A stretch of DNA of 64,000 nt from Escherichia coli (GCF_003991155.1 NZ_CP031293.1); one strand, 5' to 3'. Positions 27,341 through 51,542 are shown, counted from the stretch's first letter. Translations and numbers: made by a program. The notes: generated from the sequence alone by a model not told the origin.

Positions 27341-27820
27341 TTAATAGAGTCTCTCTTCCCATAAGCTATATGCACTGGTTCCTGCAACACAGTGCTCCTG
27401 AGTAATACTTTCATAGGTGAATGATATGGCCTCTTCTGGTTGTCCCTGGCTATTGTTGACAGTGTGCGGCACAATATGCTTTATGCTGGCAATGCGGGCG
27501 TTAATCAGCTTCACTTTGAAATACAGCTCGTTAATACCAAAACGGTTGGTGCGGTAATACTCAAAATCACAGGTCAGACACTCATTTTCGCTGATAGCCT
27601 TACTCAACAAAGGGGAAGATTTATCCACGGGTTTCTGAATAATGAGCGCTTGATGATTCACGTTTTGTGCACGGGTTAATCCGTGGCTGAGTCCCAGCAC
27701 CATGATCTGATCCATATGCGCAATCTGCGCTTTGTTCCCAATAGATGCCAGTGATGAACAGCCTGCGGAGATCAGCCCCTGGAGATCGCCGTTCAGTGTC
27801 AGGTAAACAGGATTTGCCAT
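27341..27820 (-). CDS. hcp: Hcp-family T6SS tube protein (second copy)
   Basis: MANPVYLTLNGDLQG... with KPVDKSSPLL and ELYFKVKL pattern typical of Hcp; AAGGAG RBS. Confidence 0.7.
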   Translation of the reverse strand: MANPVYLTLNGDLQGLISAGCSSLASIGNKAQIAHMDQIMVLGLSHGLTRAQNVNHQALIIQKPVDKSSPLLSKAISENECLTCDFEYYRTNRFGINELYFKVKLINARIASIKHIVPHTVNNSQGQPEEAISFTYESITQEHCVAGTSAYSLWEERLY

Positions 27821-27841: not shown

Positions 27842-29197
27842 TTATTTCCCGACCCCTTTATCAATAATTGCCGTTTCCGGTAGAGAGTGATTTTTCAGCA
27901 ACAACCAGCGACTTAACACGCCGTCCAGCCGCTCGTTAATCTGTTTTTCCAGTACGTCGGTATTCTGCCCCTGCGCACGGGCGTCCTGGTACTGCGTCAG
28001 CAGCGACTCAACGGGTGTTTCCTGCCCCAGCCCCCGCTCCGCCTGCCAGATAACATTTTTGATGTAGGAAAGGGTTACCCCCTCTTTCTCACGTTTCATC
28101 ACGAGGTCTGCAAAGGCATGTAAGTCCTGGCGGGCCTGTAACCAGCCGCGTAACTGTGGACTACTCTGCGCACGAGTTTTCAGCGTCTCATTCCACTGTG
28201 CGGTGGCCTGCTGCTGTTGCAGACTCTCCGGCCAGCGGCTGTCGGCGGTACGCGCCATCTGTAAGCCCGTATTCAGCGGCTGAACAGGTGAAGCATCAAG
28301 GAGTTGCTGTAGCCTGCGCTCATAGTTTTCCAGCTCAGGCGACACAAGCCAGACTGTCGCAGCGCCCTGCGCGGTATCGCTGACCTGGGTGAGTTGTTGC
28401 TGCATGGGAGAGACCAGCCACCACCAGAGAGCGGCGGCAACAGCCCCGGAGCAGAGAACACCCGCGATAAAACCTTTCACCGCACTGCCCTGCTTTGCCA
28501 CACTGGTCGGTGGCGTACTGTCAGCCAGGCTGCGCACCTCCACCTTCATCTCCGGCAGTTCAGGCAGCGGCGGCATCACCGTTTCGGTTGCTGGCGTAAT
28601 ACCGTTTTCCGGGGCATAAATCAGCGTTCTGACCGTGGTCTGTGCGGTGTGTTCAACGCTGCTTTTCGGCTGCGGCTCAAGTCGTTTACGCGTGTTCTGA
28701 ACAAAATAAAGCAGGTTTTCCACGCGCGGCTGGCGCTTCAGTTCCACCTGCTGGAGCTTGTCACAGATAAGCTGTAGTGCCCGTTCCGTGCGATATAACA
28801 GAGGCAGGTCAGCCTCCACAAAGGATATCTGCTGGCGCAGGATATTCCCGGTGCGGGTGTTGAACCAGTCCAGCATCTCGGTCCGCGCCGGGCCGCCCTG
28901 CGGCCAGAAGTTATCCCACTCGTGAGTGACCATCGCCGCCAGCAATTCCGCCCCTTCGCAGAATCCCGCCAGCCCCTGTGTCCGGGTCCGGGCCAGCGTG
29001 TAGTAGGTGGCGGTATGCAAATCCACCCCGTTGGCCTTAAATATCGCCAGCGCCAGCGACTCCACCAGTTTCCAGTTCAGCTCCGGCTGCGACGGGTGGC
29101 TGGCCTTGTTGATTTCCTCGCGGATGGCGCTGAACTCTGGCAGGCCACGCGGGTCACTGCCGGTAACGATAGTTTGTGTCAGTACGTTATTGCTCAT
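27842..29197 (-). CDS. vasL: T6SS-associated protein VasL-like (ImpA N-terminal domain, TM segment)
   Basis: From ATG 29197: MSNNVLTQTIVTGSDPRGLPEFSAIREEINKASHPSQPELNW is the ImpA_N signature; internal hydrophobic segment; last core-cluster position as in the Vibrio cholerae vas cluster. Confidence 0.6.
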   Translation of the reverse strand: MSNNVLTQTIVTGSDPRGLPEFSAIREEINKASHPSQPELNWKLVESLALAIFKANGVDLHTATYYTLARTRTQGLAGFCEGAELLAAMVTHEWDNFWPQGGPARTEMLDWFNTRTGNILRQQISFVEADLPLLYRTERALQLICDKLQQVELKRQPRVENLLYFVQNTRKRLEPQPKSSVEHTAQTTVRTLIYAPENGITPATETVMPPLPELPEMKVEVRSLADSTPPTSVAKQGSAVKGFIAGVLCSGAVAAALWWWLVSPMQQQLTQVSDTAQGAATVWLVSPELENYERRLQQLLDASPVQPLNTGLQMARTADSRWPESLQQQQATAQWNETLKTRAQSSPQLRGWLQARQDLHAFADLVMKREKEGVTLSYIKNVIWQAERGLGQETPVESLLTQYQDARAQGQNTDVLEKQINERLDGVLSRWLLLKNHSLPETAIIDKGVGK

Positions 29198-29207
29198 CCC
29201 TGTCTCC

Positions 29208-32200
29208 TCAGTACAGCGTGTCCGACAGCCTGAACTGGCTGAAAAGCCCGCCACTGAATGGATTGTCCTCGGTGTCAGCGTGTATCCTGTAGACCATCGC
29301 GCCACCGTCCACGTTAAACCGCACGCTGAATGTCCCTGCCTCAACGCTGGTTAACTGCCCTGCCCCGAACAGGCGGAACTGCGCCCACGGCCCGGTGAAA
29401 CGGATGCTGCGCGGCGCTCCGCCGCTGACACCTATCAGCGTCAGTTTGCTTTCATTGCCTTCCCGCATATTGTTCGGCCACACCAGGTGGGCGGTATAGT
29501 TGCGGCCCTGGCTGTAATCGACTAACTGACCGTCGAGGTTCAGTACACTGCGCCGTTTGTTGCCGGAGAGCGATACCGTTTCCACCGCAAACTGCGTTCC
29601 CAGACCGTTTTGTTTACTGAAGAAGATGTCGCGAATCTTCTGCGCAGTATCCAGTTGCCGGATGATGTCCTCACGGATAATCACCCCGTCATCGCCATCA
29701 CGGCTCAGGTCATTTTCAATAAACAGTTTCAGGTTCTGCTGCCAGAATGTGTCCAGTACGCCATCCGGTTTAAAGAAACGCTCAAACGCATCCAGTGAGG
29801 CATCCTGCGCCGAGCGCGGATTAAACGGATAGTTACCGGCAAGCTGTTCATTGAACGGTTTCACCACGTTGTCACGCCAGTCAATTTCCATATAGTGAAC
29901 GGCCTCCACCATCACCACATGCCAGGCCTGGTCGGCCAGCTTGCCCACCCAGCGGTTAAGTGGCGCGGGCAGGGTTTTCGCCATCTGGCGGGTGGCGAAT
30001 ATCGGGTCGCTACTGTTCTGGTCCAGACGTAGCTGGACGGCTTTCAGCGCCGATTTCCCCGGCACCGGCGCGTTCTGGATCGCCAGCAGATAGCGGTGCA
30101 GTTCCGTTAACTGCTGGTACACCGCCTGCATGGTACTTTCTTTGTCCTTCTGCACCGCGAGCGTACTGTTTTCCGGGGCGAATTCATGCCCGAGGCGCGT
30201 CAGCAGGCGGTAGTCCGGCTCCGCCAGCGCGTCCTCCCGTTCTTTATCAGAGAGTTTTTCAGAGAGTACCGCAGGCTGCGTGTTATCACGCAGGGCAGTC
30301 AGCGCCCGCTGAAGTGGCTGGTCACCACTGATAATCTGCTCCAGCGCACCGGTCAGTTGCGCAATGGATTCATAATCCCGGACGTTCAGGTTATCCATCC
30401 CGGCCCGCCAGGTGGCGGTGTAGTCGCTGAGATACTGTTCAGTCAGCTGGCGCTGGATCTCTGTCTGGTCAGCGTCGCTGTATTTCACGCTGCGGGTGAG
30501 GTTGAGTACCCAGGAATCCATCGCCGTCAGTTCAACCAGTTCATCGCGCTGCTTCACAAAGTAGCTTTGCAGGCCGTAACGGGTGAGAAACTGCGGAACA
30601 ACCAGTTTGTTGTCATCGGCAGACGTGAACACCTGCTCAAAGGTCGGCCCCACCTGGTCACGCAGGTTAAGGTCAGCAGGCAGTACGCCCAGTGCCCGCG
30701 TTTTCAGGCTCTGGTAAACCCGCTGGTAGACAGGCAGTTTGCTCAGTTCTTTCTGTGCTGACACAACGGGCTTGTCATACGGCATCCAGCGGCTGATGGC
30801 GTCACCGTCACCCGCCTGACGCTCTGCGTGCCAGTCCGTGTGCGCCAGCGCGTAGTCAAGATGAGACATCAGTTGCGCCTGGATATCGCGCTGGCCGTGG
30901 AACTTTTCGCTCCAGCGTTTTGCCATATACTGCTTTACGACCTCATTATTACGTCCGCTTTTATCCTCCAGCATTCGCATCACGCGCAGCACAGCGAGTT
31001 TTTCCTCGCTCTCCGGCGGCGCGGCGTTCATCTCTTTGACCAGCCCGTTAAACAGGGCAGGCAAATAACGCTGCTCCAGCAGTTGCAGGTAGGTCTGCTC
31101 CACATACGGCCCGACACGCCGCCCCTGGTATAACCCCATATCCGCCAGGCGGCTGCGGTCGCCCCAGTCGCCATAAGCAAGAGTGGCATCACGTACCGGG
31201 TTCAGCAGCGGCAGTTGCAGGTTGCCATAGTCATCCATCCCCTGCGGGGGCGTGATATCCATAAACGCTTTCGCCTGCTTCAGCACCAGGACGCCGGAGG
31301 CATAGTTGTCATTGTAATAATGGTGCCAGCCGGTGATTAACAGCAGCGCCGCCACGCCGCCCGTTGCGGAAAAGGCGGTCAGGCGGCGGCGACTGCTGGT
31401 CAGCCAGGTCCGGCTCTCCGTTGCCAGGTTAGGCTCTGCCAGTAATGCCTGCGGGAACAGGTTGCGGGTGAAATACGGCGTGGTATCCACCAGCGGCCAG
31501 GCCGTCAGCGGACTGCTGCCCAGCCGGTACTGGCGGGCGGCGGACTGGGTAAAGATGTCATCCATCTGGCCGCGTTGCAGTGACGAGGTGAGATAGACGC
31601 CGCGCAGCATGACGTCCATGTTTTCGCCATCCAGCAATCCATCCAGCAGCGCCACCAGGGATTCCCGGCTTCCCTGCATCTGGCGGGCAAAGCTGAACAG
31701 GGAGCCACGCATATGGCTCTGCGCCAGCATCAGATCCGGCAGCGCCTGGTTCATTCGGTCACACCACGACTGCCAGAAGGCATTAAGTTCGCTTCGCCAG
31801 TCCTCGTTTTCATGGGCACGACGGGTGAACGTGACGCCCAGAATGGTGTCACGATCTTTTTTATCCAGTGACTGAAACAGCGTGGCAAAACCATGCAGCA
31901 GATCCAGCCGGGTCAGCACCACATAGACCGGCAACTGGCAGTGAAGCTGCTGGCGTACATCCTGGAGGCGGCTGCGCAGCGTCTGTAGCAGATACTCACG
32001 GCGGCGCTTGTCGGCGGTCAGCAGGTCAGGTAAATCGAGGGTCAGAATGAGCCCGTTCAGCGGCTGACGGGCGCGCTTCTCTACCAGCCAGCCCAGGGCA
32101 TGTTCCCATAACCGGCGGTGCAAAACATTTGCATCCGGCTGTTCACAGAGCGAGCCATCAATATCGAATATCACCGCCTGTTGCCCGACATGCGGGATGA

Positions 32201-32729
32201 GATACAGGCGCGGCTCCGCCCCACGCACCGCTTCGGGGATATAAATTATGTCAGACGGAAAACCCTCGCGCAGCAGTGTCGTTTTGCCACTGCCCGCCGG
32301 ACCGATAACCATATACCAGGGCAACTGCCACAGGTAGCGGCGGTTGTCGAGATGGCGTTGCAGGCGCAGTAACCAGCGGTCGAGGTAACGCTGCTGGGCG
32401 TTCAGCTCCACGCTGAGCGGATCAACGGCCTCTTCGCGCTGCTGTTTTTGCTGTTTTTCAAGCTGTTGCAGGCGCTTCATTACCCGGACAGTAAGCCACA
32501 CCAGGGCAATAATCCCCCATGCTGCCGTTGCCAGCCAGCGGTTAGCCAGTGGTTTGAGCCACTGTTCTTCATACAGCGTCCACGTCGGGCCTTTCCACCA
32601 GATCCACACCAGCAGGAAAATCCACGCCAGTATCAGCAGCCAGAATGCAGAAACCTTAAACCGGGGCATCGCCGGGCGCAGGGCTGATTTGAGTCCGCTG
32701 AATAGTCGGGGTGTTGGTAATCTGAACAC
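29208..32729 (-). CDS. tssM: T6SS membrane complex protein TssM (IcmF)
   Basis: 1173 aa; N-terminal TM helices, Walker A GPAGSGKTT; GTG start with AGGAG RBS. Confidence 0.9.
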   Translation of the reverse strand: MFRLPTPRLFSGLKSALRPAMPRFKVSAFWLLILAWIFLLVWIWWKGPTWTLYEEQWLKPLANRWLATAAWGIIALVWLTVRVMKRLQQLEKQQKQQREEAVDPLSVELNAQQRYLDRWLLRLQRHLDNRRYLWQLPWYMVIGPAGSGKTTLLREGFPSDIIYIPEAVRGAEPRLYLIPHVGQQAVIFDIDGSLCEQPDANVLHRRLWEHALGWLVEKRARQPLNGLILTLDLPDLLTADKRRREYLLQTLRSRLQDVRQQLHCQLPVYVVLTRLDLLHGFATLFQSLDKKDRDTILGVTFTRRAHENEDWRSELNAFWQSWCDRMNQALPDLMLAQSHMRGSLFSFARQMQGSRESLVALLDGLLDGENMDVMLRGVYLTSSLQRGQMDDIFTQSAARQYRLGSSPLTAWPLVDTTPYFTRNLFPQALLAEPNLATESRTWLTSSRRRLTAFSATGGVAALLLITGWHHYYNDNYASGVLVLKQAKAFMDITPPQGMDDYGNLQLPLLNPVRDATLAYGDWGDRSRLADMGLYQGRRVGPYVEQTYLQLLEQRYLPALFNGLVKEMNAAPPESEEKLAVLRVMRMLEDKSGRNNEVVKQYMAKRWSEKFHGQRDIQAQLMSHLDYALAHTDWHAERQAGDGDAISRWMPYDKPVVSAQKELSKLPVYQRVYQSLKTRALGVLPADLNLRDQVGPTFEQVFTSADDNKLVVPQFLTRYGLQSYFVKQRDELVELTAMDSWVLNLTRSVKYSDADQTEIQRQLTEQYLSDYTATWRAGMDNLNVRDYESIAQLTGALEQIISGDQPLQRALTALRDNTQPAVLSEKLSDKEREDALAEPDYRLLTRLGHEFAPENSTLAVQKDKESTMQAVYQQLTELHRYLLAIQNAPVPGKSALKAVQLRLDQNSSDPIFATRQMAKTLPAPLNRWVGKLADQAWHVVMVEAVHYMEIDWRDNVVKPFNEQLAGNYPFNPRSAQDASLDAFERFFKPDGVLDTFWQQNLKLFIENDLSRDGDDGVIIREDIIRQLDTAQKIRDIFFSKQNGLGTQFAVETVSLSGNKRRSVLNLDGQLVDYSQGRNYTAHLVWPNNMREGNESKLTLIGVSGGAPRSIRFTGPWAQFRLFGAGQLTSVEAGTFSVRFNVDGGAMVYRIHADTEDNPFSGGLFSQFRLSDTLY

Positions 32730-32747
32730 AAAAACTCCTGTTCTCTT

Positions 32748-34175
32748 TTATTGTTCTGCCGTGAATTTTTGTTCAAGCTGTTCAAGTAACGATGGCTCCC
32801 AGTCGGCCACCATCATTTGCAACCCCATCCTGAACAACATCCGGTACTGCTGCTGCGCAAGCTGTACCAGCCCCGCCTCTTCCGTCAACTGGGCGGCAAG
32901 GTACTGGCGGTGAAACTGATCGCGGGGATCGCCTTCGGGTAGCATGTCCAGATACCGCAGCGCCGCCTCCAGCCCCTGCTCAGCAAAACAGGCCCTGGCC
33001 GCCTGCGATTCCTCACCGGCCTGCGCAACCGGTGCCACTTTGCAGTCGGGCGAAGCGGACAGCCATTGTTTCGTCTGCTCACTGATAAACGGTGTGCGGT
33101 CATTAAACAGCAGCCCGGTAAGCTGGGGCAGGCGCTCAAGGAAGCGGGTGACCTCATCGCGGATGGCGTCTGCCACCTGTTTGTAACCCAGGCGCAGTGC
33201 CGTCTGTGCAGAAAGGCAGTGACCGTCCAGCCAGTAAGGAGCCAGCAGTACGCTTTTCTCCACCTGCTGCCACAGCGCCATATCCGCGCTGGCAAGCCGG
33301 GACTGGTAATCCGCCACCATATCGGCAGAAACCGCAGCCAGCGGGGTGCGTCCATCGCTTTCCACCTGGGGTGTACTGGTGATGTTCTGCCACAGCGCAT
33401 GGCGGCGCAGACGGTAGCCCTGCGGTGAGTCCGGCTGGCGTTCACATAAAATGGCCGCCACTTTTAACAGCGTGTCACGCCAGGCTTTGTCGTCGTGACT
33501 GTCAACCGTAACCTGGGGGGCCGGGACGGCAGGCGCCGTACTGGCGTTTTGCGAAGCAGCGGATACGGGAGCAGCAACGGTTTGCGCCAGTGTGCCGGTA
33601 TTTGCCGGAGAGGCCGGTGACACGGGCGCAGTACCATTAAACGCGCGCTGGTACAGGGCAAAAAGATCATCCGTCGCCTGTGCCAGTTCCGGGACGTTAT
33701 GCGACTGCCAGCACTGCGCCAGCTTTGCCAGTTCCCCCAGCAGCGCATCGCGCTGTGCCGTGGCTGCACTTTCCGCAAAAGACGTGACGCCCGCCTCAAA
33801 ACGTTTTATCACCTGACTGGCAAAGCGTTTTTTATGCGCCATATTCTGCGGCGCGGCCACCGCCCAGTAATGCTCCACATACAGCGCCAGCAGGCGCAAG
33901 GCCAGGAGCGGATCACCGGCATGTTGCAGGGTTCTCAGCAGATGCGCCAGCAGGCGAAAATCCTTACTCTCCGAAGCCAGAAGGACCAGCCCCCGGTGCT
34001 GGAGTTCAGGGATATCCAGCTGGCTGTGCGCCAGCGATCCCAGCTTGACAATCCCACCGTCGATATACTCCCAGTCCGGGTTATCGTCCTTCAGCGCTGA
34101 TGCCAGTTTCTCTTCCGGCAGGTTTTCCAGCAGGTGCGATACCCAGACATTCGGATCGCGTAAGTCCATTGCCAT
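32748..34175 (-). CDS. tssA: TssA-family protein (VasJ-like)
   Basis: Position between vasI-like gene and tssM; Ala/Pro-rich linker; GGGAGA RBS before ATG 34175. Confidence 0.6.
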   Translation of the reverse strand: MAMDLRDPNVWVSHLLENLPEEKLASALKDDNPDWEYIDGGIVKLGSLAHSQLDIPELQHRGLVLLASESKDFRLLAHLLRTLQHAGDPLLALRLLALYVEHYWAVAAPQNMAHKKRFASQVIKRFEAGVTSFAESAATAQRDALLGELAKLAQCWQSHNVPELAQATDDLFALYQRAFNGTAPVSPASPANTGTLAQTVAAPVSAASQNASTAPAVPAPQVTVDSHDDKAWRDTLLKVAAILCERQPDSPQGYRLRRHALWQNITSTPQVESDGRTPLAAVSADMVADYQSRLASADMALWQQVEKSVLLAPYWLDGHCLSAQTALRLGYKQVADAIRDEVTRFLERLPQLTGLLFNDRTPFISEQTKQWLSASPDCKVAPVAQAGEESQAARACFAEQGLEAALRYLDMLPEGDPRDQFHRQYLAAQLTEEAGLVQLAQQQYRMLFRMGLQMMVADWEPSLLEQLEQKFTAEQ

Positions 34176-34179
34176 ATTT

Positions 34180-34923
34180 TTATTCTCCCGCCCAGTGGCA
34201 GGCATCGCGCAGGGGTGCAATCGCCCCTGCCAGCCCGTCAATGTTAAAGGTCAGCTTTCCGGCGGCGTTGTCTGCGCCGGTATCCACCGTCAGCGTTTTT
34301 GCGCCAAATAACTGTTTAATTTCATCAATACCGGATAACCCCCGGCTGGACTCCAGCAGGGTGCCGTTCTCGCGTACAAACCAGTGGCTGCGTAATGCCC
34401 GGCTGTCAGCATTCAGGGTAACGGCGATATCATGGACATCCAGAGGGTGCATCAGCGCCACCTGCATCCGGGTAATATTGTCCACGCAACTGAACATCAG
34501 CACCGGGCGCGGCGGAACATGGCCGATAGCCGGGGTGGTTATCACCACCGTCGGGCGTTCCCCCGGCACCTGCGTCACCAGCAGCTCCGTGGTGTTGCCC
34601 TGGCGGCGTTTTTCCTGCTCTGTGGCGCGGGTCCAGGCTTCGCCCACAAAACCAGCTTTGACCAGCGCCCCGTCAAACCCTGACGGGGACAGCGGTTCCA
34701 GCAGGCGGTCATAGCAGTCAAGCCGCTCCAGCGCCGCAGACTCCCGCCGACAGGACTGCATGGCCTGTAACGTGGCTGTCGCATCCGGCGGTGTCGCTGT
34801 GGCGACAGCTACTGCCACACCGGCCATTGACGATGTTTCTGCGGGCGCGGCACTGGCGGGTAAGCCCGCCATCAGGCCCGCGATAAACCATCCTGTCTGC
34901 CGGAAAACGCGCAACCTGCTCAT
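34180..34923 (-). CDS. T6SS-associated secreted protein (VasI-like by position)
   Basis: Signal peptide FIAGLMAGLPASAAPA; start overlaps clpV stop (ATGA). Confidence 0.45.
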   Translation of the reverse strand: MSRLRVFRQTGWFIAGLMAGLPASAAPAETSSMAGVAVAVATATPPDATATLQAMQSCRRESAALERLDCYDRLLEPLSPSGFDGALVKAGFVGEAWTRATEQEKRRQGNTTELLVTQVPGERPTVVITTPAIGHVPPRPVLMFSCVDNITRMQVALMHPLDVHDIAVTLNADSRALRSHWFVRENGTLLESSRGLSGIDEIKQLFGAKTLTVDTGADNAAGKLTFNIDGLAGAIAPLRDACHWAGE

Positions 34924-37658: not shown

Positions 37659-37669
37659 ATATTGTGTCC

Positions 37670-38488: not shown

Positions 38489-38492
38489 GGCC

Positions 38493-39836: not shown

Positions 39837-39838
39837 TG

Positions 39839-40372
39839 TCAGTTTTCCTCTTTTTTCATTTCGATACTGCTTTGCCTTACATGCACCAGCAAACGGTAGT
39901 GATGGCCTGTACCTTCCACCGCTTCGATTTGTTTCCATTCGGTCGCCTGGTCATCGGAGAAGTAGGCCACGACACCGATAAACTGCGTTTTCTCATCCAG
40001 CTTTACCGGCGGCAGGGTTTTAATGGTGTCCGGCAGCAGGTTAAAGTCCTGGTGGTCGATATAGTTTTTACCCAGCACATCCGGCAGCGGCGTACTGGCG
40101 ATCTGGTCATAGTCGGCTGCCTGCAACTTAGAGTCGTCGCTCATATAAATCAGTTGCACATCAACTGCCGCCGCCTCACCTTCTGCATTAATATTTGTGT
40201 CCGGCTCGGTCAGCAACGTGACCGTCACCTCTGAGGCCTGATCCGCCAGTTTCCCGACCTGAATATCCGGATTCTTGATCACCTGGCCGAGCTTTTTCAC
40301 TGTTTCGCAGCCTGTCAGGGTGAGGCTGAACAGCACCACCATCGTGCAGACGCGAAAGAAGCGCGCGGTCAT
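39839..40372 (-). CDS. tssJ: T6SS outer-membrane lipoprotein TssJ
   Basis: Lipobox LTLTGCE; start overlaps tagH stop. Confidence 0.75.
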   Translation of the reverse strand: MTARFFRVCTMVVLFSLTLTGCETVKKLGQVIKNPDIQVGKLADQASEVTVTLLTEPDTNINAEGEAAAVDVQLIYMSDDSKLQAADYDQIASTPLPDVLGKNYIDHQDFNLLPDTIKTLPPVKLDEKTQFIGVVAYFSDDQATEWKQIEAVEGTGHHYRLLVHVRQSSIEMKKEEN

Positions 40373-41667
40373 GCTTCCGGCTCCCGCTGTTTCTCACGCA
40401 GTACCCGGTCATAGACCTGGGCATAGACTTCGTTAAACAGCATTTCAAATCCCTGCTGGCGATCGGACGCCAGTTCTTCGTAATAATGGCTGTACATCTG
40501 CCAGGCTCCGGCGGCGTCCAGCGGCTGGCGAAGTTCATGGCTGCGGCGGTACTGCACAAAACGGCGCATCAGGCTCTGTGGTGAAAACGCATCCAGCAGC
40601 ACGCGGAGCGACTCCACAATCGCCGCCCGGTTGGCCTCTTCGTGATGGCGGATATTGCGCAGGCTTTCGCTGACGGCGGCAGGGGCCGCCAGATGTACCG
40701 GGCTTTTGCCCTCTGCAAACATCACATCAAGCGCGGTGGCGTAATCCATGTTCAGCCGCAGCGGGTTATCTTCCAGCGGGCGCAAATGTTTATCCGACAG
40801 GCTGTTACGGTGCTGTTGTAGATCGAGTAACCCTTTTATTGCCGCCTGTAGGGTTCGTCCGGCCTCTTCGAGAAAACCATCCGCATCCTGCGAGTTGCGT
40901 ACAGCCAGGGTACTACCCAGCCCACGCAGTAGCGGGGTAACAGCAAGATGGAGTTGGGCGATGTCAGTCGGATTAACGGAATCATCATGCTTCTCCTGCG
41001 GATCGGGATACACCGGAGGCAGATCCATAAACGGTTTGTCGATCACACCATCCCTGACGGGAGCCGAAGAGCGGGTTGGGACGATCCCGGAGAGAGGATC
41101 ACCCGCCACCGTCAAACTTTCTGCCTGAAGCGCCTGCAACGGATCGGCTGAAAAACTGTTGGCCACGGTATCTGCAAGCTGGTGTCGCTGGGGCATACCT
41201 GGATATGCAGGCTGGCCGTCCGTTGTCAGCAATGAGTCCGCCAGACGATCACGGTTAGTGACGATAGTTTCAGGTGCTGCCATCTGTTCGCTGTAAGTGA
41301 TCAGTTTTCCTGTGTGGATAAACACCTTCAGCGCCAGTGCCCCCAGCACGATCTCGTCCCCCTGTCGCAGACGTACCAGCCCGGCATCCAGGGCAACCGG
41401 AGCCAGGTTAATCATCAGTCCTGTACCCAGACTCTTCAGACAAAATGCGCCGTCATGCACCACCACCTGGCAGGCACGACCGGCAACGGAACCGGCCCTG
41501 TCCTGTACCGGCCAGTGGCACTCAGGCAGGTTACCGATATCCCCGCCATCAGCAGTAAAGAGGCATTTTGCGGCACGTCCGCTCTCCAGTTCATTACCGT
41601 TCATCACCTGTAATGTCATTGAGAGCCGGGAGGACTGCGTTTTTTCTTCAGCCATATGCGATTCCAT
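40369..41667 (-). CDS. tagH: T6SS FHA-domain protein TagH
   Basis: N-terminal FHA-like region then Pro-rich linker; start taken at ATG 41667 with AGGGA RBS. Confidence 0.65.
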   Translation of the reverse strand: MESHMAEEKTQSSRLSMTLQVMNGNELESGRAAKCLFTADGGDIGNLPECHWPVQDRAGSVAGRACQVVVHDGAFCLKSLGTGLMINLAPVALDAGLVRLRQGDEIVLGALALKVFIHTGKLITYSEQMAAPETIVTNRDRLADSLLTTDGQPAYPGMPQRHQLADTVANSFSADPLQALQAESLTVAGDPLSGIVPTRSSAPVRDGVIDKPFMDLPPVYPDPQEKHDDSVNPTDIAQLHLAVTPLLRGLGSTLAVRNSQDADGFLEEAGRTLQAAIKGLLDLQQHRNSLSDKHLRPLEDNPLRLNMDYATALDVMFAEGKSPVHLAAPAAVSESLRNIRHHEEANRAAIVESLRVLLDAFSPQSLMRRFVQYRRSHELRQPLDAAGAWQMYSHYYEELASDRQQGFEMLFNEVYAQVYDRVLREKQREPEA

Positions 41668-41671
41668 AAAA

Positions 41672-42715
41672 TTAATCCCTGATGTGAAGGGTGACGGAGG
41701 GCGGCGTTTTGGGCTGACCAATAAACGCCGTGCGTCCGATGCAGGAGCGGGAACGATCACCCAGCAGCATTCCTTTTGCCTGTTCCGGAGCCAGATCCAG
41801 CCGGAGATCCCAGGCAAACTGATCGCGCAACAGAAAGGCAATAAACATGGTCAGCGCCTGGTGGTTTTCGCCTTCCGGTAAAAACGAGAGATAGCACGCC
41901 ATGGAAAGATTACTTAACCGCAGCAGAAATTTTCCGCTGCGATCAGGTACTCTGGCACCCAGCGTAAAATTAACGCCAATGACGGAGCGCCCTGGTACGT
42001 ATCCGGCGGTTTTCTTTTTAGCATTACGCACGCCCAGCCGGTTCTGCTGGTCAGGCGCAATGACCACCTTTCGTAACTGCCAGCTTTCAATACTGACATC
42101 CGGCAGATCAAAGCAGTGGCTGACCAGGTTGCACACCACATCCGGCGAGCGCCCCGGCGTTGCCAGAATTCCGGCATACGCGAGCATTTTGCTGTGGTTG
42201 ATGGCAAGCCTGTCACGCACACTCTGGTTGCCCAGCCCAACCAGCGCATACATTCGCTGTGAAAAGACATCCGTCCCACCGTTGCGAAAACAGATGTAAT
42301 AGCGGTACTTACGCCAGGCATGGTAGGCAAATTGCGTCCAGCGGTGGCTGAACAGATCAAGAAATGCTTTCAGCCCTTCTTCATTCTGTGCGGATTCCCG
42401 CGCCATCCGATCCAGGTAATAACCGGGTAGCGGAGACTGGCCGCCGGAGAAACCGAGAAATTTTGTGGTCAGGGTAAACTGCCCGGAATCCCTGCGCTCA
42501 AGCGTGCTCAGGTCGCTACAGGGAAAGGCAATACTGGCGTCAGATTTAAACAGCGCCACTTCCTTTTCTGGCTCGGTGCGCAGGGACGGATCCTGATTCG
42601 GTGCACCATATCGGCGGTACAGTGATTCCATCAGCACATAAAAATTTATCCCGCGCACATCCGGGAGTATTCCCGTTCCCTCTATATCAGGGCGTGCTGG
42701 CCCGTATGTTGCCAT
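41672..42715 (-). CDS. tssG: T6SS baseplate protein TssG
   Basis: Size and position between tssF and tagH. Confidence 0.7.
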   Translation of the reverse strand: MATYGPARPDIEGTGILPDVRGINFYVLMESLYRRYGAPNQDPSLRTEPEKEVALFKSDASIAFPCSDLSTLERRDSGQFTLTTKFLGFSGGQSPLPGYYLDRMARESAQNEEGLKAFLDLFSHRWTQFAYHAWRKYRYYICFRNGGTDVFSQRMYALVGLGNQSVRDRLAINHSKMLAYAGILATPGRSPDVVCNLVSHCFDLPDVSIESWQLRKVVIAPDQQNRLGVRNAKKKTAGYVPGRSVIGVNFTLGARVPDRSGKFLLRLSNLSMACYLSFLPEGENHQALTMFIAFLLRDQFAWDLRLDLAPEQAKGMLLGDRSRSCIGRTAFIGQPKTPPSVTLHIRD

Positions 42716-44505
42716 TCCCAGGACTCCTGACTTTCCGTGTTAATAATTTTGAGGCAGTGAAATGAGTTGATGCTGGCATAAAGGGCAAAGAAGTATGAGA
42801 GCACCGTCCCCAGGAAATAGATCTCCCCCTCACAGACAAAGGGTGCGGGGTTAATCCACAGCGTGGTGGAGAGACCGCGGACCGGTATGCCTTTAAACAG
42901 GCGATCGACGGGACGGGATTCCATTTTTTCGATGGCATCCAGCTTCTGGGAGGAAAGCCGGGCCTGCTGCGGGTGATGAATGCCTGGTAAATCAAAAGTA
43001 CGCAGTACCTGAACCAGTGCTTCCCTGTCCAGCAGCGAGAGGTAGTTCAGGTTCATGCTTGAAATCAGCGACCAGTGCATATCACCATCCGTCACCGGGT
43101 ATAACGGGCGGGTTGGCCGGGTGACATTGCTGAAGGAAGCCACTGCCGGGTTTTTATTCACGGCTTCACAGATATCACCCACATGCAGTGACGCGGGCAA
43201 CATCCGGTTGGTGCATACCAGCGAGGCCGTGAACACTTCTCCGTCCAGTAGGGCCTGCTCCGGCAGGCTGCCATCAGCATGGACAAAGGCAATGGAATGA
43301 TCCAGTCCCCGGTGAAACAGTGACGTTTTTGTGCGGTGATGCCAGTAAACGACTTCACGCTGACGGCTGTACTCGATCTGGTGCTGAAAACCCTCAAATT
43401 CAGGCCAAAGGCGATACTTTTCCCCTTTGCTGACCGTTGGAAGTTTGCTGGAAACAGATTTTATCTGAAAAATATCATAGAACTCTGGATACTGTTGGCT
43501 GGCCGTTAATGGGTACTGTGGCGCACTGTCATCGGGCCTCACGGGTTCAGAATGATGGACAAACAGGTTCACTGCTGGTGTGCAATATGGACGAAGTGAA
43601 GCCTTACGCAGCTTAACATCCACCGGAAGAGGCAGATTAAAGTGCAGTCGTAGTGTAAAAGCATGGAGCGGGAAGCCTTTCGGCAACGGTGCAGCCTCCC
43701 GCAGATGAAAGAAGAAAAAGCTCTCCGGATAACAGAAATACTCCTGAAGTACACGGTAGCCATTATGTACGTTTTTCGGCCACGGCAGCAGCGCATCCTC
43801 CCGCTCAAATCCCGCAGCCTCAAGCCACAGATCCGGCAGCGCCACACGGTGATCTCCGGCTACCAGTTCCGCATCCATCAGACGCTCACTAAACCACAGA
43901 TAGAGTTGATGGCGGGTATAATCATCCTCATTTCCCAGCCAGAAGGAGAGCTTATTCAGATCCAGTTCACCGGGAGAAACGTTTCCCTCAGTGAAAAAAT
44001 CTATCTCAATGACACCTTCTTTGAGGGTACTGGTATTCCGTACATCCCTTACCATCAGGGGTTGTAGCCAGATATCACGCGCCAGTGTGAAATAGCAGTT
44101 CGGCAGTGCGGCTTTGTTATCATCATCGGTTAACGCCCCCCGAGCATAAGTTCGCATACTGCTGCCTGTCTGCGTTTTTATCAGCTCGTCGCGGTGTACC
44201 TGGACGGATGATTTCAGTTCCTTACGGGGTTGGTATTCAATCACTGCCATTGCCGGAACCGGGCGTAAATAGTTAGGCCACAACATATTAATCAGGCTAT
44301 GCGTAAATTCCGGGAATTCATCCTCCAGCTTTTGTCGCAAACCGCCCGAGAGAAACGCAAACGCCTCCATCAGGCGTTCCACATCAGGATCACCTTCCTT
44401 TTCAGCCAGAAAGCGGGCCAGATAAGGTTTCTCCTGTGACAGCAGCTTGCCAAGCTGACGTAGATAATCAAGCTCTTCTCGATAGTAACGTTCTTCGAAG
44501 GCCAT
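42682..44505 (-). CDS. tssF: T6SS baseplate protein TssF
   Basis: MAFEERYYREELDYLRQLG N-terminus typical of TssF; GGAG RBS. Confidence 0.8.
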   Translation of the reverse strand: MAFEERYYREELDYLRQLGKLLSQEKPYLARFLAEKEGDPDVERLMEAFAFLSGGLRQKLEDEFPEFTHSLINMLWPNYLRPVPAMAVIEYQPRKELKSSVQVHRDELIKTQTGSSMRTYARGALTDDDNKAALPNCYFTLARDIWLQPLMVRDVRNTSTLKEGVIEIDFFTEGNVSPGELDLNKLSFWLGNEDDYTRHQLYLWFSERLMDAELVAGDHRVALPDLWLEAAGFEREDALLPWPKNVHNGYRVLQEYFCYPESFFFFHLREAAPLPKGFPLHAFTLRLHFNLPLPVDVKLRKASLRPYCTPAVNLFVHHSEPVRPDDSAPQYPLTASQQYPEFYDIFQIKSVSSKLPTVSKGEKYRLWPEFEGFQHQIEYSRQREVVYWHHRTKTSLFHRGLDHSIAFVHADGSLPEQALLDGEVFTASLVCTNRMLPASLHVGDICEAVNKNPAVASFSNVTRPTRPLYPVTDGDMHWSLISSMNLNYLSLLDREALVQVLRTFDLPGIHHPQQARLSSQKLDAIEKMESRPVDRLFKGIPVRGLSTTLWINPAPFVCEGEIYFLGTVLSYFFALYASINSFHCLKIINTESQESWEWQHTGQHALI

Positions 44506-44509
44506 CAGA

Positions 44510-44932
44510 TTACTCCACACACCAATGCTGGTGGTTATCCAGCAAAATATCAAATTCCAGAACATCCTGTCGGTCACTGAAATCTATGTACGCTACAATA
44601 TGAAAACCTAGCTCCAGTGGCGCGTGCATTTCCTCTTCGGCAGCACTAACCACCACATCAGAAATGCGGGGTTCGTAACGCAGAATGCTATTTTTAATAG
44701 CCAGAATCATCCAGTCCCGGATGTTCATGGAGTCAGGGGAGCCATCATTAAAATCTACAATCCCAAGCTCCGGAGAACCGTGGCAACTACCAGAACGGGT
44801 GTTGAGTATATTGCGCAGGTTATTGCGAACAGAATGCAACAACGCCACCTTTGGACGTTGACGCGAAGAGGGATTTACCGCCTCACCAATACGCTCAAAC
44901 AAACTTCCTCCCGACTCCCGTTCCGTTACCAT
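44510..44932 (-). CDS. tssE: T6SS baseplate protein TssE (gp25-like)
   Basis: SLFERI motif near N-terminus; about 140 aa. Confidence 0.75.
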   Translation of the reverse strand: MVTERESGGSLFERIGEAVNPSSRQRPKVALLHSVRNNLRNILNTRSGSCHGSPELGIVDFNDGSPDSMNIRDWMILAIKNSILRYEPRISDVVVSAAEEEMHAPLELGFHIVAYIDFSDRQDVLEFDILLDNHQHWCVE

Positions 44933-44934
44933 GC

Positions 44935-46419
44935 TCACTCCTTGTCCAGACGTCCGACCAGGGATAATTCAAATGAAGCCCCCATGTATTTGAAGTGCGG
45001 ACGTACTGCGATATTGACCTGATACCAGCCCGGTTCACCTTCAACATCAGCAACTTCAATTTTTGCCTGGCGTAATGGCTTGCGGCTGCGAACTTCTGAA
45101 GGCGGGTTTTCCTGGTCAGCCACATACTGACGAATCCAGGTGTTTAACTCGCGTTCAAGATCTCCACGCTCTTTCCATGAACCCAACTGTTCACGCTGAA
45201 GCACTTTAATGTAATGCGCCAGCCTGTTGATAATGAACAGATAAGGAAGCTGAGTGCCCAGTTTGTAGTTAGTCTCGGCTTCTTTTCCTTCCGGCGTATT
45301 GGGGAATACTTTCGGCTTCTGTACTGAATTGGCGGAGAAAAATGCTGCATTGTCAGAGCCTTTACGCATAGTCAGAGTGATGAAACCCTGCTCTGCCAGC
45401 TCATACTCCCGTCTGTCGGTAATGAGAATTTCCGTCGGGACTTTAGCCTGAAGCTGGCCCATAGCCTCATATAAATGCACGGGCAAATCTTTTACAGCAC
45501 CACCACTTTGTGGACCGACAATATTCGGGCACCAGCGCGTTGACATGAAACTCTCAGCCATGTTTGCTGCCAGCAGAAACGCGGTGTTACCCCACAAATA
45601 GTGTTCGTGGTTTTTGCTGACATTTTCATGATAATTAAAGCTTTTCACCGGATTCTCATCAGGCGCATAAGGGTGACGCAACAGGAAACGCGGTGCTGTC
45701 AGACCGAGATTTCGGGAGTCTTCTGACTCACGCAGTGAACGCCATTTGGTGTAAGCCGGGCCTTCGAAAATGGCGGCAACATCCTTGATACCAGGAAGTT
45801 CGGTAAACGAATCCAGGCCAAAGAAATCAGGGGAAACGGAAGACAGGAACGGGCAGTGAGCCATCGCGCTGACTGCGCTGATATATTTCAGCAGCTTCAT
45901 ATCGGCGGCGGTATTATCGAAAGCGTAATTACCAATAACAGCGGCAACTGGCTCCCCACCAAACTGGCCGAAACCACTGGAATAAACATGCCGGTAGTAT
46001 CCTGACTGGGTAATTTCCGGAGCAAATTCAAAATCATCCAGCAGTTCTTCTTTGGTAGCATGCATCAGATGAATTTTGATGTTTTCGCGCGGATCGGCAT
46101 GGTCAACCAGCAGTTTCAGTGAACGCAGGAACGATTCCAGCTCCTGAAACTCCGGGGCATGGAGAATCAAATCCATTTGACGCCCCATGCGCTCATCGAT
46201 GTCAGCAATCATGCCATTGACGGCAAGAATATCGACGGACTCCGCCTCTTCATCACTTTGTAACAGCGCAGTGATAAAAGCAGTCACGCCCTGACGGGCA
46301 ATATCGTAGCTTTCTGATTCCGGTTTAAAACGAGTCTGCGCCATGATTTCATCCAGCAGGGTGGGCGCGGAGACCGGTGCAGCGGAAGCAGATACTTCCG
46401 GTAAGGTAGTTTCTGACAT
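44935..46419 (-). CDS. tssC: T6SS sheath large subunit TssC
   Basis: About 495 aa, conserved sheath protein pattern; start at ATG 46419. Confidence 0.9.
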   Translation of the reverse strand: MSETTLPEVSASAAPVSAPTLLDEIMAQTRFKPESESYDIARQGVTAFITALLQSDEEAESVDILAVNGMIADIDERMGRQMDLILHAPEFQELESFLRSLKLLVDHADPRENIKIHLMHATKEELLDDFEFAPEITQSGYYRHVYSSGFGQFGGEPVAAVIGNYAFDNTAADMKLLKYISAVSAMAHCPFLSSVSPDFFGLDSFTELPGIKDVAAIFEGPAYTKWRSLRESEDSRNLGLTAPRFLLRHPYAPDENPVKSFNYHENVSKNHEHYLWGNTAFLLAANMAESFMSTRWCPNIVGPQSGGAVKDLPVHLYEAMGQLQAKVPTEILITDRREYELAEQGFITLTMRKGSDNAAFFSANSVQKPKVFPNTPEGKEAETNYKLGTQLPYLFIINRLAHYIKVLQREQLGSWKERGDLERELNTWIRQYVADQENPPSEVRSRKPLRQAKIEVADVEGEPGWYQVNIAVRPHFKYMGASFELSLVGRLDKE

Positions 46420-46438
46420 ACTGAAGTCCTTGTACAAG

Positions 46439-46945
46439 TTATTTCCGGCCTGCGAGGCCCAGCTCTGCAATCAGTTGCTCACGGCTCTTTTCGTCATCAA
46501 GCAATGCCTGAAGTTGTGCACGGAACGCAGGGATATTGCCCATTGGCCCCCGAAGCGCCACCAATGCTTCGCGTAGTTCCAGCATTTTGCGCATCTCCGG
46601 CACCTGGGAGGCAATGTTGTCCGGAGAAAGATCGGCCAGCGAGCTGATTTTCAGATTTACGCTCATGCGCGTATCAGGCGTTTCGCTGAGAGCAGACGGA
46701 ACGGTGAAATCACGACCAATCCCTGCCTGATCCAGCACTGCGTTAAAGTTGTTGCGGTTGATGGCAACGGGCTGGCGCTCATCCAGTGGCGTGTTATCTG
46801 CATCACCTGTCAAATTGCCAGTAACCAACAGATTTAGCGGTAATTCCACTTCTGCTGTCTGATTCCCCGTTTTTGGCTTAAATTTAATATTTACTCTTTC
46901 TTTTGGGGCAATACTGCCACCACCGTCATTTCTTCTGCTGCTCAT
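46439..46945 (-). CDS. tssB: T6SS sheath small subunit TssB
   Basis: MSSRRNDGGGSIAPKERVNIKFK... typical TssB; start ATG 46945. Confidence 0.85.
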   Translation of the reverse strand: MSSRRNDGGGSIAPKERVNIKFKPKTGNQTAEVELPLNLLVTGNLTGDADNTPLDERQPVAINRNNFNAVLDQAGIGRDFTVPSALSETPDTRMSVNLKISSLADLSPDNIASQVPEMRKMLELREALVALRGPMGNIPAFRAQLQALLDDEKSREQLIAELGLAGRK

Positions 46946-51540: not shown

Positions 51541-51542
51541 GG

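What the first reader, a model, noticed from the sequence alone, without database searches (positions are those of the whole stretch)
27842..46945. Complete T6SS core cluster with Vibrio-like gene order but no VasH activator
The order tssB-C-E-F-G-tagH-tssJ-K-L-clpV-vasI-tssA-tssM-vasL mirrors the V. cholerae vas cluster, with several translationally coupled junctions (ATGA overlaps), but no sigma-54 enhancer-binding protein gene is present. Regulation must come from elsewhere, possibly via the palindromes at 47231-47312 and the island H-NS proteins.
Basis: partly seen in the sequence, partly recalled or inferred. Interest (0 to 1): 0.45.

Follow-up and report, generated by a model that had tools for sequence, protein, structure and literature searches.

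The report
Ordinary E. coli T6SS-2 cluster without VasH
This is an intact type VI secretion gene cluster of the common Escherichia coli "T6SS-2" kind, sitting in a tRNA-Asn island, and its lack of the VasH activator is the normal state for this whole enterobacterial lineage rather than an oddity.

Summary
NCBIfam and RefSeq annotation confirm tssB-C-E-F-G-tagH-tssJ-K-L-clpV-vasI-tssA-tssM-vasL on the minus strand at 27842-46945. hcp, vgrG and PAAR-Rhs lie just outside. No sigma-54 enhancer-binding protein is encoded anywhere in the 64 kb window.

It is not unusual. The window is E. coli chromosome, identical to 28 RefSeq genomes. The common aspV-linked T6SS-2 (EHEC, UM146) has the same order without vasH. 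Of 80 related loci from Enterobacterales, all are colinear. Only 2 keep a full VasH, 47 keep a ~265-aa remnant without the AAA+ domain, and 27 of the 75 that cover the junction have nothing, as here.

The regulatory ideas are partly right. The 682-bp tssB-hcp spacer is 34% GC against 56% in the cluster, and its EHEC counterpart is H-NS-silenced in published work. Sigma-70-like promoters are conserved. Two weak sigma-54-like sites are not. The 22-bp palindrome is real but lineage-specific. The H-NS-family genes lie in a separate serU island and look like Hfp and H-NST.

One new lead emerged: the hcp leader carries two hairpins supported by covariation, with GGA in a loop and at the ribosome-binding site. 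This fits the reported CsrA repression of hcp.

Verdict: already known, low interest.

The parts
46439..46945 (-). tssB (sheath small subunit), first gene of the structural operon
   Evidence: TIGR03358, 167.6 bits; RefSeq tssB
44935..46419 (-). tssC (sheath large subunit)
   Evidence: TIGR03355, 677 bits. The best solved homologue is V. cholerae VipB, 746-793 bits
44510..44932 (-). tssE (baseplate)
   Evidence: TIGR03357
42682..44505 (-). tssF (baseplate)
   Evidence: TIGR03359
41672..42715 (-). tssG (baseplate); overlaps tssF by 34 nt
   Evidence: TIGR03347; junction shown
40369..41655 (-). tagH (FHA-domain accessory protein)
   Evidence: TIGR03354
39839..40372 (-). tssJ (outer-membrane lipoprotein). 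The RefSeq start is 40342. A start at 40372 would give an ATGA overlap with tagH.
   Evidence: TIGR03352
38493..39836 (-). tssK (baseplate); used as the anchor for the search of related loci
   Evidence: TIGR03353
37670..38440 (-). tssL / DotU
   Evidence: TIGR03349
34920..37658 (-). tssH / clpV ATPase
   Evidence: TIGR03345, 1122 bits
34180..34923 (-). vasI. Its ATG overlaps the clpV stop (ATGA), which is the position where vasH sits in VasH-containing clusters.
   Evidence: TIGR03360
32748..34175 (-). tssA
   Evidence: TIGR03362, 489 bits
29208..32639 (-). tssM / IcmF
   Evidence: TIGR03348, 939 bits
27842..29197 (-). vasL (TssA-type N-terminal domain only)
   Evidence: Partial TIGR03362 hit, below cut-off; RefSeq 'VasL domain-containing protein'
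27341..27820 (-). second hcp (tssD) at the end of the structural operon
   Evidence: TIGR03344
46946..47627 (.). Divergent tssB<>hcp control region, 682 bp, 33.9% GC against 56.3% in the cluster
   Evidence: The orthologous EHEC region is reported as H-NS-bound with several transcription start sites (PMC13141884).
47068..47095 (-). Sigma-70-like tssB promoter: TTTTCA, 16 nt, TAGAAT. The -10 hexamer is kept in nearly all 16 close relatives examined.
   Evidence: inference; no transcription start data
47322..47349 (+). Sigma-70-like hcp promoter: GTGACA, 16 nt, TATAAT (11 of 12 matches). It would give a leader of about 270 nt.
   Evidence: inference
47293..47314 (.). Perfect 22-bp palindrome AAAATAAGGATATCCTTATTTT, just upstream of the hcp -35 hexamer; specific to this lineage
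47527..47584 (+). Two hairpins in the hcp leader. Hairpin 2 (47561-47584) has the loop GGGAUUAA, and the ribosome-binding site that follows is ACAAGGAG (47611-47618).
   Evidence: Covariation across 14 species; fold z-score -2.2; GGA in the loop in 12 of 14
47628..48146 (+). hcp (tssD), followed by a terminator-like hairpin at about 48153-48190
   Evidence: RefSeq; sequence; compare region I of h3R in EHEC (PMC13141884)
48360..50348 (+). vgrG (tssI)
   Evidence: RefSeq
50359..55961 (+). DUF2169 accessory gene and PAAR-Rhs effector (1472 aa), followed by orphan Rhs tips and immunity genes up to about 60880
   Evidence: RefSeq
21942..23446 (+). tRNA-Asn next to mtfA, and the island's tyrosine integrase; this is the left end of the island
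   Evidence: The island runs to about cbl, roughly 45 kb.

Best explanation
The region is an intact contractile type VI secretion system of the kind called T6SS-2 in E. coli. It has the V. cholerae-like gene order and the accessory genes tagH, vasI and vasL. It is carried on a roughly 45-kb integrase-bearing island at a tRNA-Asn gene next to mtfA.

The structural genes form one tightly packed minus-strand operon, tssB to hcp. The operon hcp / vgrG-DUF2169-PAAR-Rhs diverges from it on the plus strand.

The lack of VasH is inherited, not a local deletion. This lineage of Enterobacterales lost the sigma-54 activator stepwise: a full EBP, then an AAA+-less remnant, then nothing. hcp sits next to the main cluster instead of in a separate VasH-dependent operon.

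The likely control, which is inferred, has three layers:
1. Sigma-70-type divergent promoters lie in a 34% GC spacer.
2. The host's H-NS silences that spacer, as shown for the EHEC orthologue.
3. The structured hcp leader adds a post-transcriptional layer. Its hairpin-loop GGA and its GGA at the ribosome-binding site look like a CsrA binding pair.
For: Shown here:
- Every core gene passes its NCBIfam equivalog cut-off, and RefSeq marks none as a pseudogene.
- The window is 100% identical to E. coli chromosomes.
- UM146 and EDL933 aspV clusters have the same order and no EBP.
- All 80 TssK-anchored loci are colinear. The VasH state is full in 2, remnant in 47 and none in 27, with 4 loci not covering the junction.
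- No EBP motif or VasH homology occurs in the window.
- The spacer is 33.9% GC against 56.3% in the cluster.
- The -10 TAGAAT upstream of tssB is conserved, and hcp has an 11-of-12 sigma-70 match.
- The leader hairpins are 92% paired against 37-48% for slid controls, with 24 double-change cells against 6.7 in shuffles.
- Only the hcp-proximal 173 nt of the spacer aligns with 2182 other E. coli genomes.

From the literature:
- T6SS-2 nomenclature: PMC10711316, PMC13141884.
- H-NS repression of the EHEC cluster: PMC5363993.
- H-NS bound at the tssB-hcp spacer, and CsrA repression of hcp3 and tssC: PMC13141884, citing Kim 2022 and Wang 2017.
- VasH/RpoN drive the hcp operons, not the main cluster, in V. 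cholerae: PMC3439928.
Against: - There are no expression, transcription-start or binding data for this locus, so the promoter assignments are consensus matches only.
- The H-NS and CsrA evidence comes from the EHEC orthologue. Its spacer aligns with this one only over the hcp-proximal 173 nt, at 71% identity.
- Two sigma-54-like sites (9 of 12 matches) face tssB and hcp at plausible distances.
- V. cholerae DNA was not fetched. The comparison with it rests on established knowledge, on the VasH-containing Yokenella and Brenneria loci, and on VipB being the best solved homologue.
- Only the best 80 of 363 related stretches were examined.
Confidence: 0.8

Rival explanations
1. The cluster is still sigma-54 dependent. 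A chromosomal enhancer-binding protein acting in trans would replace VasH and fire promoters at 47577-47592 (+, TGGCAGGTCATCAGCA, upstream of hcp) and 47025-47010 (-, TGGGCTGGTATTTGCT, upstream of tssB).
For: Both sites match 9 of 12 core positions, have the GG and GC dinucleotides, and point at the right genes. About 0.34 such sites are expected by chance in the spacer.
Against: - Neither site is conserved. In 13 orthologous leaders the TGGCA of the hcp site reads CGGCA, CGACG, TGACA, GGGCA, CGGTA, CGGCG or TGATG, and its -12 GC is lost.
- The changes at the hcp site preserve base pairing of a hairpin instead.
- The tssB site loses its GG or GC in UM146, EDL933 and the Citrobacter relatives.
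- 32 sites of the same or better score occur in the window, mostly inside genes.
Confidence: 0.05
2. A dedicated regulator specific to this lineage binds the 22-bp palindrome at 47293-47314, centred about 52 bp upstream of the predicted hcp start. It would switch the hcp operon, and possibly both operons.
For: A perfect 22-mer is improbable by chance (0.06% of shuffles). The half-site AAGGAT recurs at 47235 and, on the other strand, at 47109-47118. The position suits an activator acting upstream of a promoter.
Against: - No relative has a palindrome there. Only a TAAGGA half-site appears at a similar position in about five relatives.
- This spacer exists only as 28 identical copies, so conservation cannot be tested.
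- No regulator gene is evident in the T6SS island.
- AT-rich DNA readily produces palindromes.
Confidence: 0.12
3. The neighbouring serU-island H-NS paralogues set the expression level. These are a full-length Hfp/H-NSB-like protein (17360-17764) and a truncated H-NST-like protein (18283-18525). H-NST would antagonise H-NS silencing of the T6SS spacer.
For: Both genes are present and intact. H-NST from serU-type islands relieves H-NS repression of other loci, and Hfp forms heteromers with H-NS (PMC7074111). The T6SS spacer looks like an H-NS target.
Against: The genes belong to a different island, beyond mtfA and two tRNA genes. serU islands occur in many strains regardless of this T6SS. No data link them to any T6SS. 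Identity to the published H-NST and Hfp was inferred from size, domain and location, not from a sequence comparison.
Confidence: 0.12
4. The cluster is a silent or decaying passenger with no working regulation, as reported for parts of the O157:H7 T6SS.
For: T6SS-2 is off under laboratory conditions in EHEC, and some EDL933 genes are frameshifted (PMC5363993; PMC12981562 by title and abstract).
Against: All 19 genes here have full-length ORFs that match their family profiles end to end. None is flagged as a pseudogene. The island is identical in 28 genomes from people, animals and wastewater.
Confidence: 0.08

Closest known systems
E. coli T6SS-2 (aspV-linked cluster of EHEC EDL933/Sakai, UM146 and ST410-A)
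   Same: The gene order is identical from hcp-vasL through tssB, with a divergent hcp-vgrG-DUF2169-PAAR/Rhs operon. There is no vasH. The GC content is similar (55.6-56.4%). The spacer is AT-rich. The hcp leader hairpins are the same.
   Different: This copy is inserted at tRNA-Asn next to mtfA rather than at aspV, and it has its own integrase. Nucleotide identity is only 79-87%. The cluster is a mosaic: tssB-tssK are nearest to Citrobacter (86-95% aa, against 59-76% to EDL933), while clpV-vasI-tssA-tssM-vasL are nearest to EDL933 (84-97%). The spacer is mostly unrelated apart from the 173 nt next to hcp. It is found in 28 of 5426 complete genomes.
Citrobacter youngae / C. sedlakii T6SS, and the Lelliottia and Buttiauxella clusters
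   Same: These are the closest relatives overall (TssK 85-93%). They share the order, the lack of vasH and the divergent hcp.
   Different: VasI and TssA are only 64-72% identical, which suggests recombination in that part of the E. coli cluster.
V. cholerae vas cluster (VCA0107-VCA0123)
   Same: The order vipA/B-tssE-vasA-B-C-D-E-F-G-(H)-I-J-K-L is the same (established knowledge). TssC is most similar to VipB among solved structures.
   Different: V. cholerae encodes VasH between vasG and vasI and keeps its hcp operons elsewhere, under VasH/RpoN control (PMC3439928). Here there is no VasH, hcp is adjacent, and no conserved -24/-12 promoter is present.
VasH-containing enterobacterial clusters (Yokenella regensburgei L075, Brenneria alni L078)
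   Same: The structural genes are colinear, and VasI follows the regulator gene.
   Different: They carry a 512-513-aa sigma-54 EBP between clpV and vasI. No hcp was detected within the 3 kb held upstream of tssB. TssK is 48-49% identical.

Membership tests
Canonical proteobacterial T6SS | All 13 core components, TssA-M, are present | tested here: met
   NCBIfam equivalogs above cut-off for TssA, B, C, D (two copies), E, F, G, H, J, K and M, and the DotU domain model for TssL. VgrG and PAAR come from the RefSeq annotation. hcp and vgrG lie outside the stated interval.
E. coli T6SS-2 / V. cholerae-type architecture | Gene order tssB-C-E-F-G-tagH-tssJ-K-L-clpV-vasI-tssA-tssM-vasL, with a divergent hcp-vgrG and Rhs effectors | tested here: met
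   Colinear with UM146 and EDL933. Literature: presence of rhs genes (stated for T6SS-2 only) and a locus with an FHA-domain gene classed as T6SS-2 (PMC10711316); the EHEC cluster is T6SS-2 (PMC13141884).
E. coli T6SS-2 / V. cholerae-type architecture | Phylogenetic subtype assignment (SecReT6 or TXSScan tree of core proteins) | not testable with these tools
   Indirect support only: the best solved TssC homologue is V. cholerae VipB at 746-793 bits, against 345 bits for the next-but-weaker sheath chain 5n8n and 269 for the Francisella-type chain 3j9o (organism of 5n8n from memory).
VasH / sigma-54-controlled T6SS | An enhancer-binding protein gene in the cluster, between clpV and vasI | tested here: not met
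   clpV and vasI overlap by 4 nt. No GAFTGA or Walker-A motif in six frames. No tblastn hit to VasH or its remnant.
VasH / sigma-54-controlled T6SS | A conserved -24 GG / -12 GC promoter upstream of hcp or tssB | tested here: not met
   Two sites with 9 of 12 matches are present but not conserved in orthologues.
H-NS-silenced horizontally acquired locus | AT-rich control region relative to its surroundings | tested here: met
   33.9% GC over 682 bp against 56.3% in the cluster. Median 30% GC in 68 orthologous spacers.
H-NS-silenced horizontally acquired locus | H-NS binding, and de-repression in an hns mutant | not testable with these tools
   Shown for the EHEC orthologue only (PMC5363993, PMC13141884).
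CsrA-controlled mRNA leader | A GGA motif in a hairpin loop plus a second GGA overlapping the Shine-Dalgarno sequence, within bridging distance | tested here: met
   GGA in the loop of hairpin 2 in 12 of 14 species. ACAAGGAG/ACAAGGAA at the Shine-Dalgarno position in 13 of 14. The two sites are about 44 nt apart.
CsrA-controlled mRNA leader | CsrA binding and an effect on translation or stability | not testable with these tools
   CsrA is reported to repress hcp3 and tssC in EHEC, with the binding sites unmapped (PMC13141884, citing Wang 2017).
tRNA-linked genomic island | A tyrosine integrase next to a tRNA gene, with foreign cargo | tested here: met
   tRNA-Asn at 21942-22017 and the integrase at 22184-23446. 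The island ends near cbl. The flanking direct repeat was not looked for.

The most novel reading that the evidence does not exclude
Two linked proposals remain open.

1. The VasH-less state seen here is the end point of a stepwise dismantling of sigma-54 control within Enterobacterales. The stages are a full VasH (Brenneria, Yokenella), a ~265-aa 'mini-VasH' that keeps the N-terminal domain and the Fis-type HTH but has lost the AAA+ motor (Yersinia, Serratia, Photorhabdus, Xenorhabdus, Proteus, Morganella), and no gene at all (Escherichia, Citrobacter, Lelliottia, Buttiauxella, Rahnella).

2. In the last group, control of hcp moved to a conserved two-hairpin mRNA leader. That leader would be the unmapped cis-element through which CsrA represses hcp.

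Public databases annotate the mini-VasH only as 'Fis family regulator', 'HTH domain protein' or 'hypothetical'. Four full-text searches that included the term VasH found no description of it or of the leader element.
Probability: 0.35. Interest if true: 0.4.

Novelty: already known. Interest (0 to 1): 0.15.

Why it matters
The finding as stated matters little. It re-describes the standard architecture of E. coli T6SS-2, which is already annotated in RefSeq and studied in EHEC.

Three by-products have modest value:
- This is a rare second insertion site (tRNA-Asn near mtfA) for a mosaic Citrobacter/E. coli T6SS-2. That illustrates recombination between T6SS loci of different genera.
- The comparative map of VasH states (full, motor-less, absent) gives a concrete evolutionary route for the loss of sigma-54 control.
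- The covariation-supported hcp leader gives EHEC researchers a defined target. They report that removing H-NS or swapping promoters is not enough to switch the system on, and that CsrA represses hcp through unmapped sites.

Tried and rejected
- Sigma-54 promoter search. A plain consensus search with 3 mismatches gave 280 hits against 318 expected, so it was uninformative. A stricter GG-N10-GC scan gave two 9-of-12 sites in the spacer. Both were rejected because orthologues do not keep them.
- Positive control for that scan. The VasH-containing loci L075 and L078 showed no strong site upstream of tssB either. This agrees with V. cholerae, where VasH acts on hcp operons located elsewhere, so the control says nothing about sensitivity.
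- Rfam scan of 46400-48500 at E<=1 returned no known RNA family.
- Palindrome conservation. No equivalent palindrome occurs in 19 relatives. No intermediate variants of the spacer exist in 5426 E. coli genomes. The palindrome therefore cannot be supported or dismissed by comparison.
- The H-NS high-affinity motif TCGATAAATT gave one 2-mismatch hit in the spacer, which is not informative.
- A short upstream ORF before tssB (MLRSWPG) was considered. It was rejected because its length and sequence vary from 3 to more than 20 codons among relatives, while the nucleotides are conserved regardless of frame.
- Bernard et al. 2011 and Kim et al. 2022 were not held in the library.
- One script failed because locus files were not yet written, another because of how the locus files are named, and one paper query was rejected for a short term. 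All were repeated successfully.

Full report
**What is there**

The minus strand from 46945 down to 27842 carries fourteen closely packed genes. NCBIfam equivalog models, each above its curated cut-off, identify TssB, TssC, TssE, TssF, TssG, TagH, TssJ, TssK, DotU/TssL, ClpV/TssH, VasI, TssA and TssM. The last gene has only a TssA-type N-terminal domain and is named VasL-domain protein in RefSeq. A second hcp follows at 27341-27820. On the plus strand, 682 bp away, lie hcp (47628-48146), vgrG, a DUF2169 gene and a 1472-aa PAAR-Rhs effector, followed by orphan Rhs tips and immunity genes. The 13-gene core is complete only when hcp and vgrG, just outside the stated interval, are counted.

With RefSeq starts there is one ATGA overlap (clpV/vasI). 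A second (tagH/tssJ) exists if tssJ starts at 40372, as annotated in UM146 and EDL933. There is also a 34-nt tssF/tssG overlap and four gaps of 2-4 nt.

**No VasH**

No GAFTGA or EBP Walker-A motif occurs in any frame of the 64-kb window. tblastn with two full VasH proteins and three VasH remnants taken from related loci finds nothing in the window. clpV and vasI overlap, so no gene can sit between them.

**Where it comes from**

The window is E. coli chromosome. The cluster is 100% identical to strain 2016C-3878 and others, and 28 of 5426 complete genomes carry it at 99% identity or more. It lies in an island of about 45 kb that starts at a tRNA-Asn gene beside mtfA with a tyrosine integrase, and ends near cbl. 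A further 3355 genomes match at 60-95% identity. These are the common aspV-linked cluster, which the literature calls T6SS-2 (PMC10711316, PMC13141884). UM146 and EDL933 show exactly the same gene order, the same divergent hcp-vgrG operon and no vasH. GC content is the same, 56.3% here against 55.6-56.4%.

**Wider comparison**

A scan of one genome per species, anchored on TssK, kept 80 loci, all from Enterobacterales. All 80 are colinear with the window. The nearest are Citrobacter youngae and C. sedlakii (TssK 93%), then Lelliottia and Buttiauxella.

At the clpV-vasI junction there are three states:
- Full VasH. A 512-513-aa sigma-54 EBP is present only in Yokenella regensburgei and Brenneria alni.
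- Remnant. A ~265-aa protein is present in 47 loci: Yersinia including Y. pestis, Serratia, Photorhabdus, Xenorhabdus, Morganella, Proteus and others.
- Nothing. No gene is present in 30 loci, which are 27 of the 80 plus the three E. coli reference loci.

The 265-aa protein aligns with residues 1-204 of Brenneria VasH (29% identity, E=7e-20) and with residues 456-508, and it carries a Pfam HTH_8 domain. It lacks the roughly 250-residue AAA+ sigma-54-interaction domain. Databases name it only 'Fis family regulator', 'HTH domain protein' or 'hypothetical'.

The absence of VasH in the window is thus a trait of a whole clade (TssK 55% identical or more), and looks like the last step of a gradual loss. 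It is not a feature of this locus. The comparison with V. cholerae itself rests on three things: established knowledge of VCA0107-0123, these VasH-bearing relatives, and VipB being the best solved homologue of TssC. I did not fetch Vibrio DNA.

**Mosaic structure**

Per-gene identities show two halves. TssB-TssK are closest to Citrobacter (86-95%, against 59-76% to EDL933). ClpV, VasI, TssA, TssM and VasL are closest to the EDL933 type (84-97%, against 64-90% to Citrobacter). The cluster is best read as a recombinant between two T6SS-2 lineages.

**Regulation: sigma-54**

A strict scan requiring GG-N10-GC finds two 9-of-12 sites in the spacer. Both point at the right genes: 47577 (+) before hcp and 47025 (-) before tssB. 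About 0.34 such sites are expected by chance. Neither survives comparison. In 13 orthologous hcp leaders the TGGCA becomes CGGCA, CGACG, TGACA, GGGCA, CGGTA, CGGCG or TGATG, and the -12 GC disappears. The tssB site loses its GG or GC in UM146, EDL933 and the Citrobacter relatives. I reject sigma-54 dependence (about 5% residual).

**Regulation: what is conserved**

- Upstream of tssB, a -10 hexamer TAGAAT/TAAAAT (47073-47068) is kept in nearly all 16 close relatives. It is preceded by a poor -35 hexamer and by a conserved box, ATACCCCTC.
- Upstream of hcp, GTGACA-16-TATAAT (47322-47349) matches 11 of 12 positions and has counterparts in EDL933 and UM146.
- The spacer is 33.9% GC, and the median of 68 orthologous spacers is 30%.
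- For the EHEC orthologue, published work shows strong H-NS repression (PMC5363993). It also reports H-NS binding at this spacer, several transcription starts, and a need for further signals beyond hns deletion or promoter swapping (PMC13141884).

I therefore infer sigma-70 promoters silenced by the chromosomal H-NS.

**The hcp leader**

The sigma-54-like site before hcp is in fact the 3' arm of a hairpin, CCUGCC-A-GGGAUUAA-U-GGCAGG (47561-47584). A second hairpin lies just upstream. Across 14 species 92% of cells pair, against 37-48% when the partners are slid. There are 24 cells with changes on both sides against 6.7 in shuffles, with 0 of 500 shuffles reaching the observed value. Nine of the 15 pairs show compensatory change. 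The window's own leader folds with z = -2.2.

The loop holds GGA in 12 of 14 species, and the ribosome-binding site reads ACAAGGAG (ACAAGGAA in one) in 13 of 14. This is the classic two-site arrangement for CsrA. CsrA is reported to repress hcp3 and tssC in EHEC, with unmapped sites (PMC13141884). Only this hcp-proximal 173 nt of the spacer aligns with the 2182 other E. coli genomes, which argues for function. Rfam has no matching family.

A terminator-like hairpin follows hcp (about 48153-48190), as described for EHEC. The tssB leader may also be structured (GCCA...CGGCAU / AUGCYG...UGGC), but the covariation there is weak: one pair has 4 compensatory changes.

The palindrome is real. It is a perfect 22-mer at 47293-47314, and such a palindrome arose in 0.06% of shuffles. 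It sits just upstream of the hcp -35 hexamer. No relative has a palindrome there, and this spacer exists only as 28 identical copies. It remains an untested, lineage-specific possibility.

The H-NS-family genes (17360-17764, 134 aa; 18283-18525, 80 aa) are not in the T6SS island. They lie left of tRNA-Ser, with mtfA and tRNA-Asn in between. Their size, domain content and location match the serU-island pair Hfp/H-NSB and H-NST. H-NST is a known H-NS antagonist (PMC7074111). An effect on the T6SS is conceivable but unsupported.

**Verdict**

The thing itself is a known kind of system, already annotated, whose missing VasH is normal for its lineage. Interest is low. The by-products, the VasH decay series and the conserved hcp leader, are modest leads.

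Noticed in passing
L032:14716-15510, L043:14761-15558, L077:14819-15613 and 44 further loci: A ~265-aa 'mini-VasH' sits between clpV and vasI. It is homologous to the N-terminal domain and the C-terminal HTH_8 of VasH, but the whole AAA+ sigma-54-interaction domain is deleted. It is found in Yersinia (including Y. pestis), Serratia, Photorhabdus, Xenorhabdus, Morganella and Proteus. Databases annotate it only as Fis-family, HTH or hypothetical protein.
   Followed up: partly
window 47527-47584, with the Shine-Dalgarno sequence at 47611-47618: The hcp 5' leader carries two hairpins supported by covariation in 14 species. GGA is in the loop of the second hairpin and at the Shine-Dalgarno sequence. 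This is a candidate CsrA site, and Rfam has no matching family.
   Followed up: yes
window 46950-47035 (minus strand): The conserved blocks in the tssB leader (GCCA, CGGCAU, AUGCYG, CAUGGC) are mutually complementary and may form a long-range RNA structure. Covariation is weak.
   Followed up: partly
window 27842-46945 compared with L003, L004, L005: The cluster is a mosaic. tssB-tssK are most like Citrobacter youngae/sedlakii, while clpV-vasI-tssA-tssM-vasL are most like the E. coli EDL933 aspV type. This suggests recombination between T6SS-2 lineages.
   Followed up: partly
window 11002-13066 (minus strand): A type I Thoeris anti-phage pair lies in the serU island: ThsA (SIR2/STALD, 672 bits) and ThsB (TIR, 284 bits).
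   Followed up: yes
window 17360-17764 (+) and 18283-18525 (-): A full-length and an 80-aa truncated H-NS-family gene lie side by side left of tRNA-Ser. They fit the published serU-island Hfp/H-NSB and H-NST (an H-NS antagonist). No sequence comparison with the published proteins was made.
   Followed up: partly
window 1-20860: The serU island also carries a MobQ relaxase, RepL, a type IV pilin and a PilV shufflon adhesin next to a tyrosine recombinase. It looks like a mobilisable element of plasmid origin.
   Followed up: no
window 55981-60880; L084 (record 1545000-1560515): An array of orphan Rhs C-terminal tips with immunity genes, including imm11, lies downstream of the PAAR-Rhs gene. Two further tRNA-Asn genes nearby each carry an integrase. 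One of them also has an Rhs gene and a DUF2169 fragment, so several asn-tRNA sites hold T6SS-related cargo.
   Followed up: no
window 48153-48190: A terminator-like hairpin (AACAGCA..TGCTGTTTTTG) lies directly after hcp. It matches the 'h3R region I' element described for EHEC. The simple terminator scan missed it because the stem has bulges.
   Followed up: partly
window 32640-32747: RefSeq starts tssM at a CTG codon (32639), which leaves a 108-nt gap after tssA. An in-frame GTG at 32729 would close the gap. The NCBIfam profile begins near the RefSeq start, and UM146 has a similar 79-nt gap.
   Followed up: no
L008:12164-14811: clpV of Lelliottia nimipressuralis is split into two ORFs (514 and 417 aa). 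This is probably a frameshift or a sequencing error.
   Followed up: no
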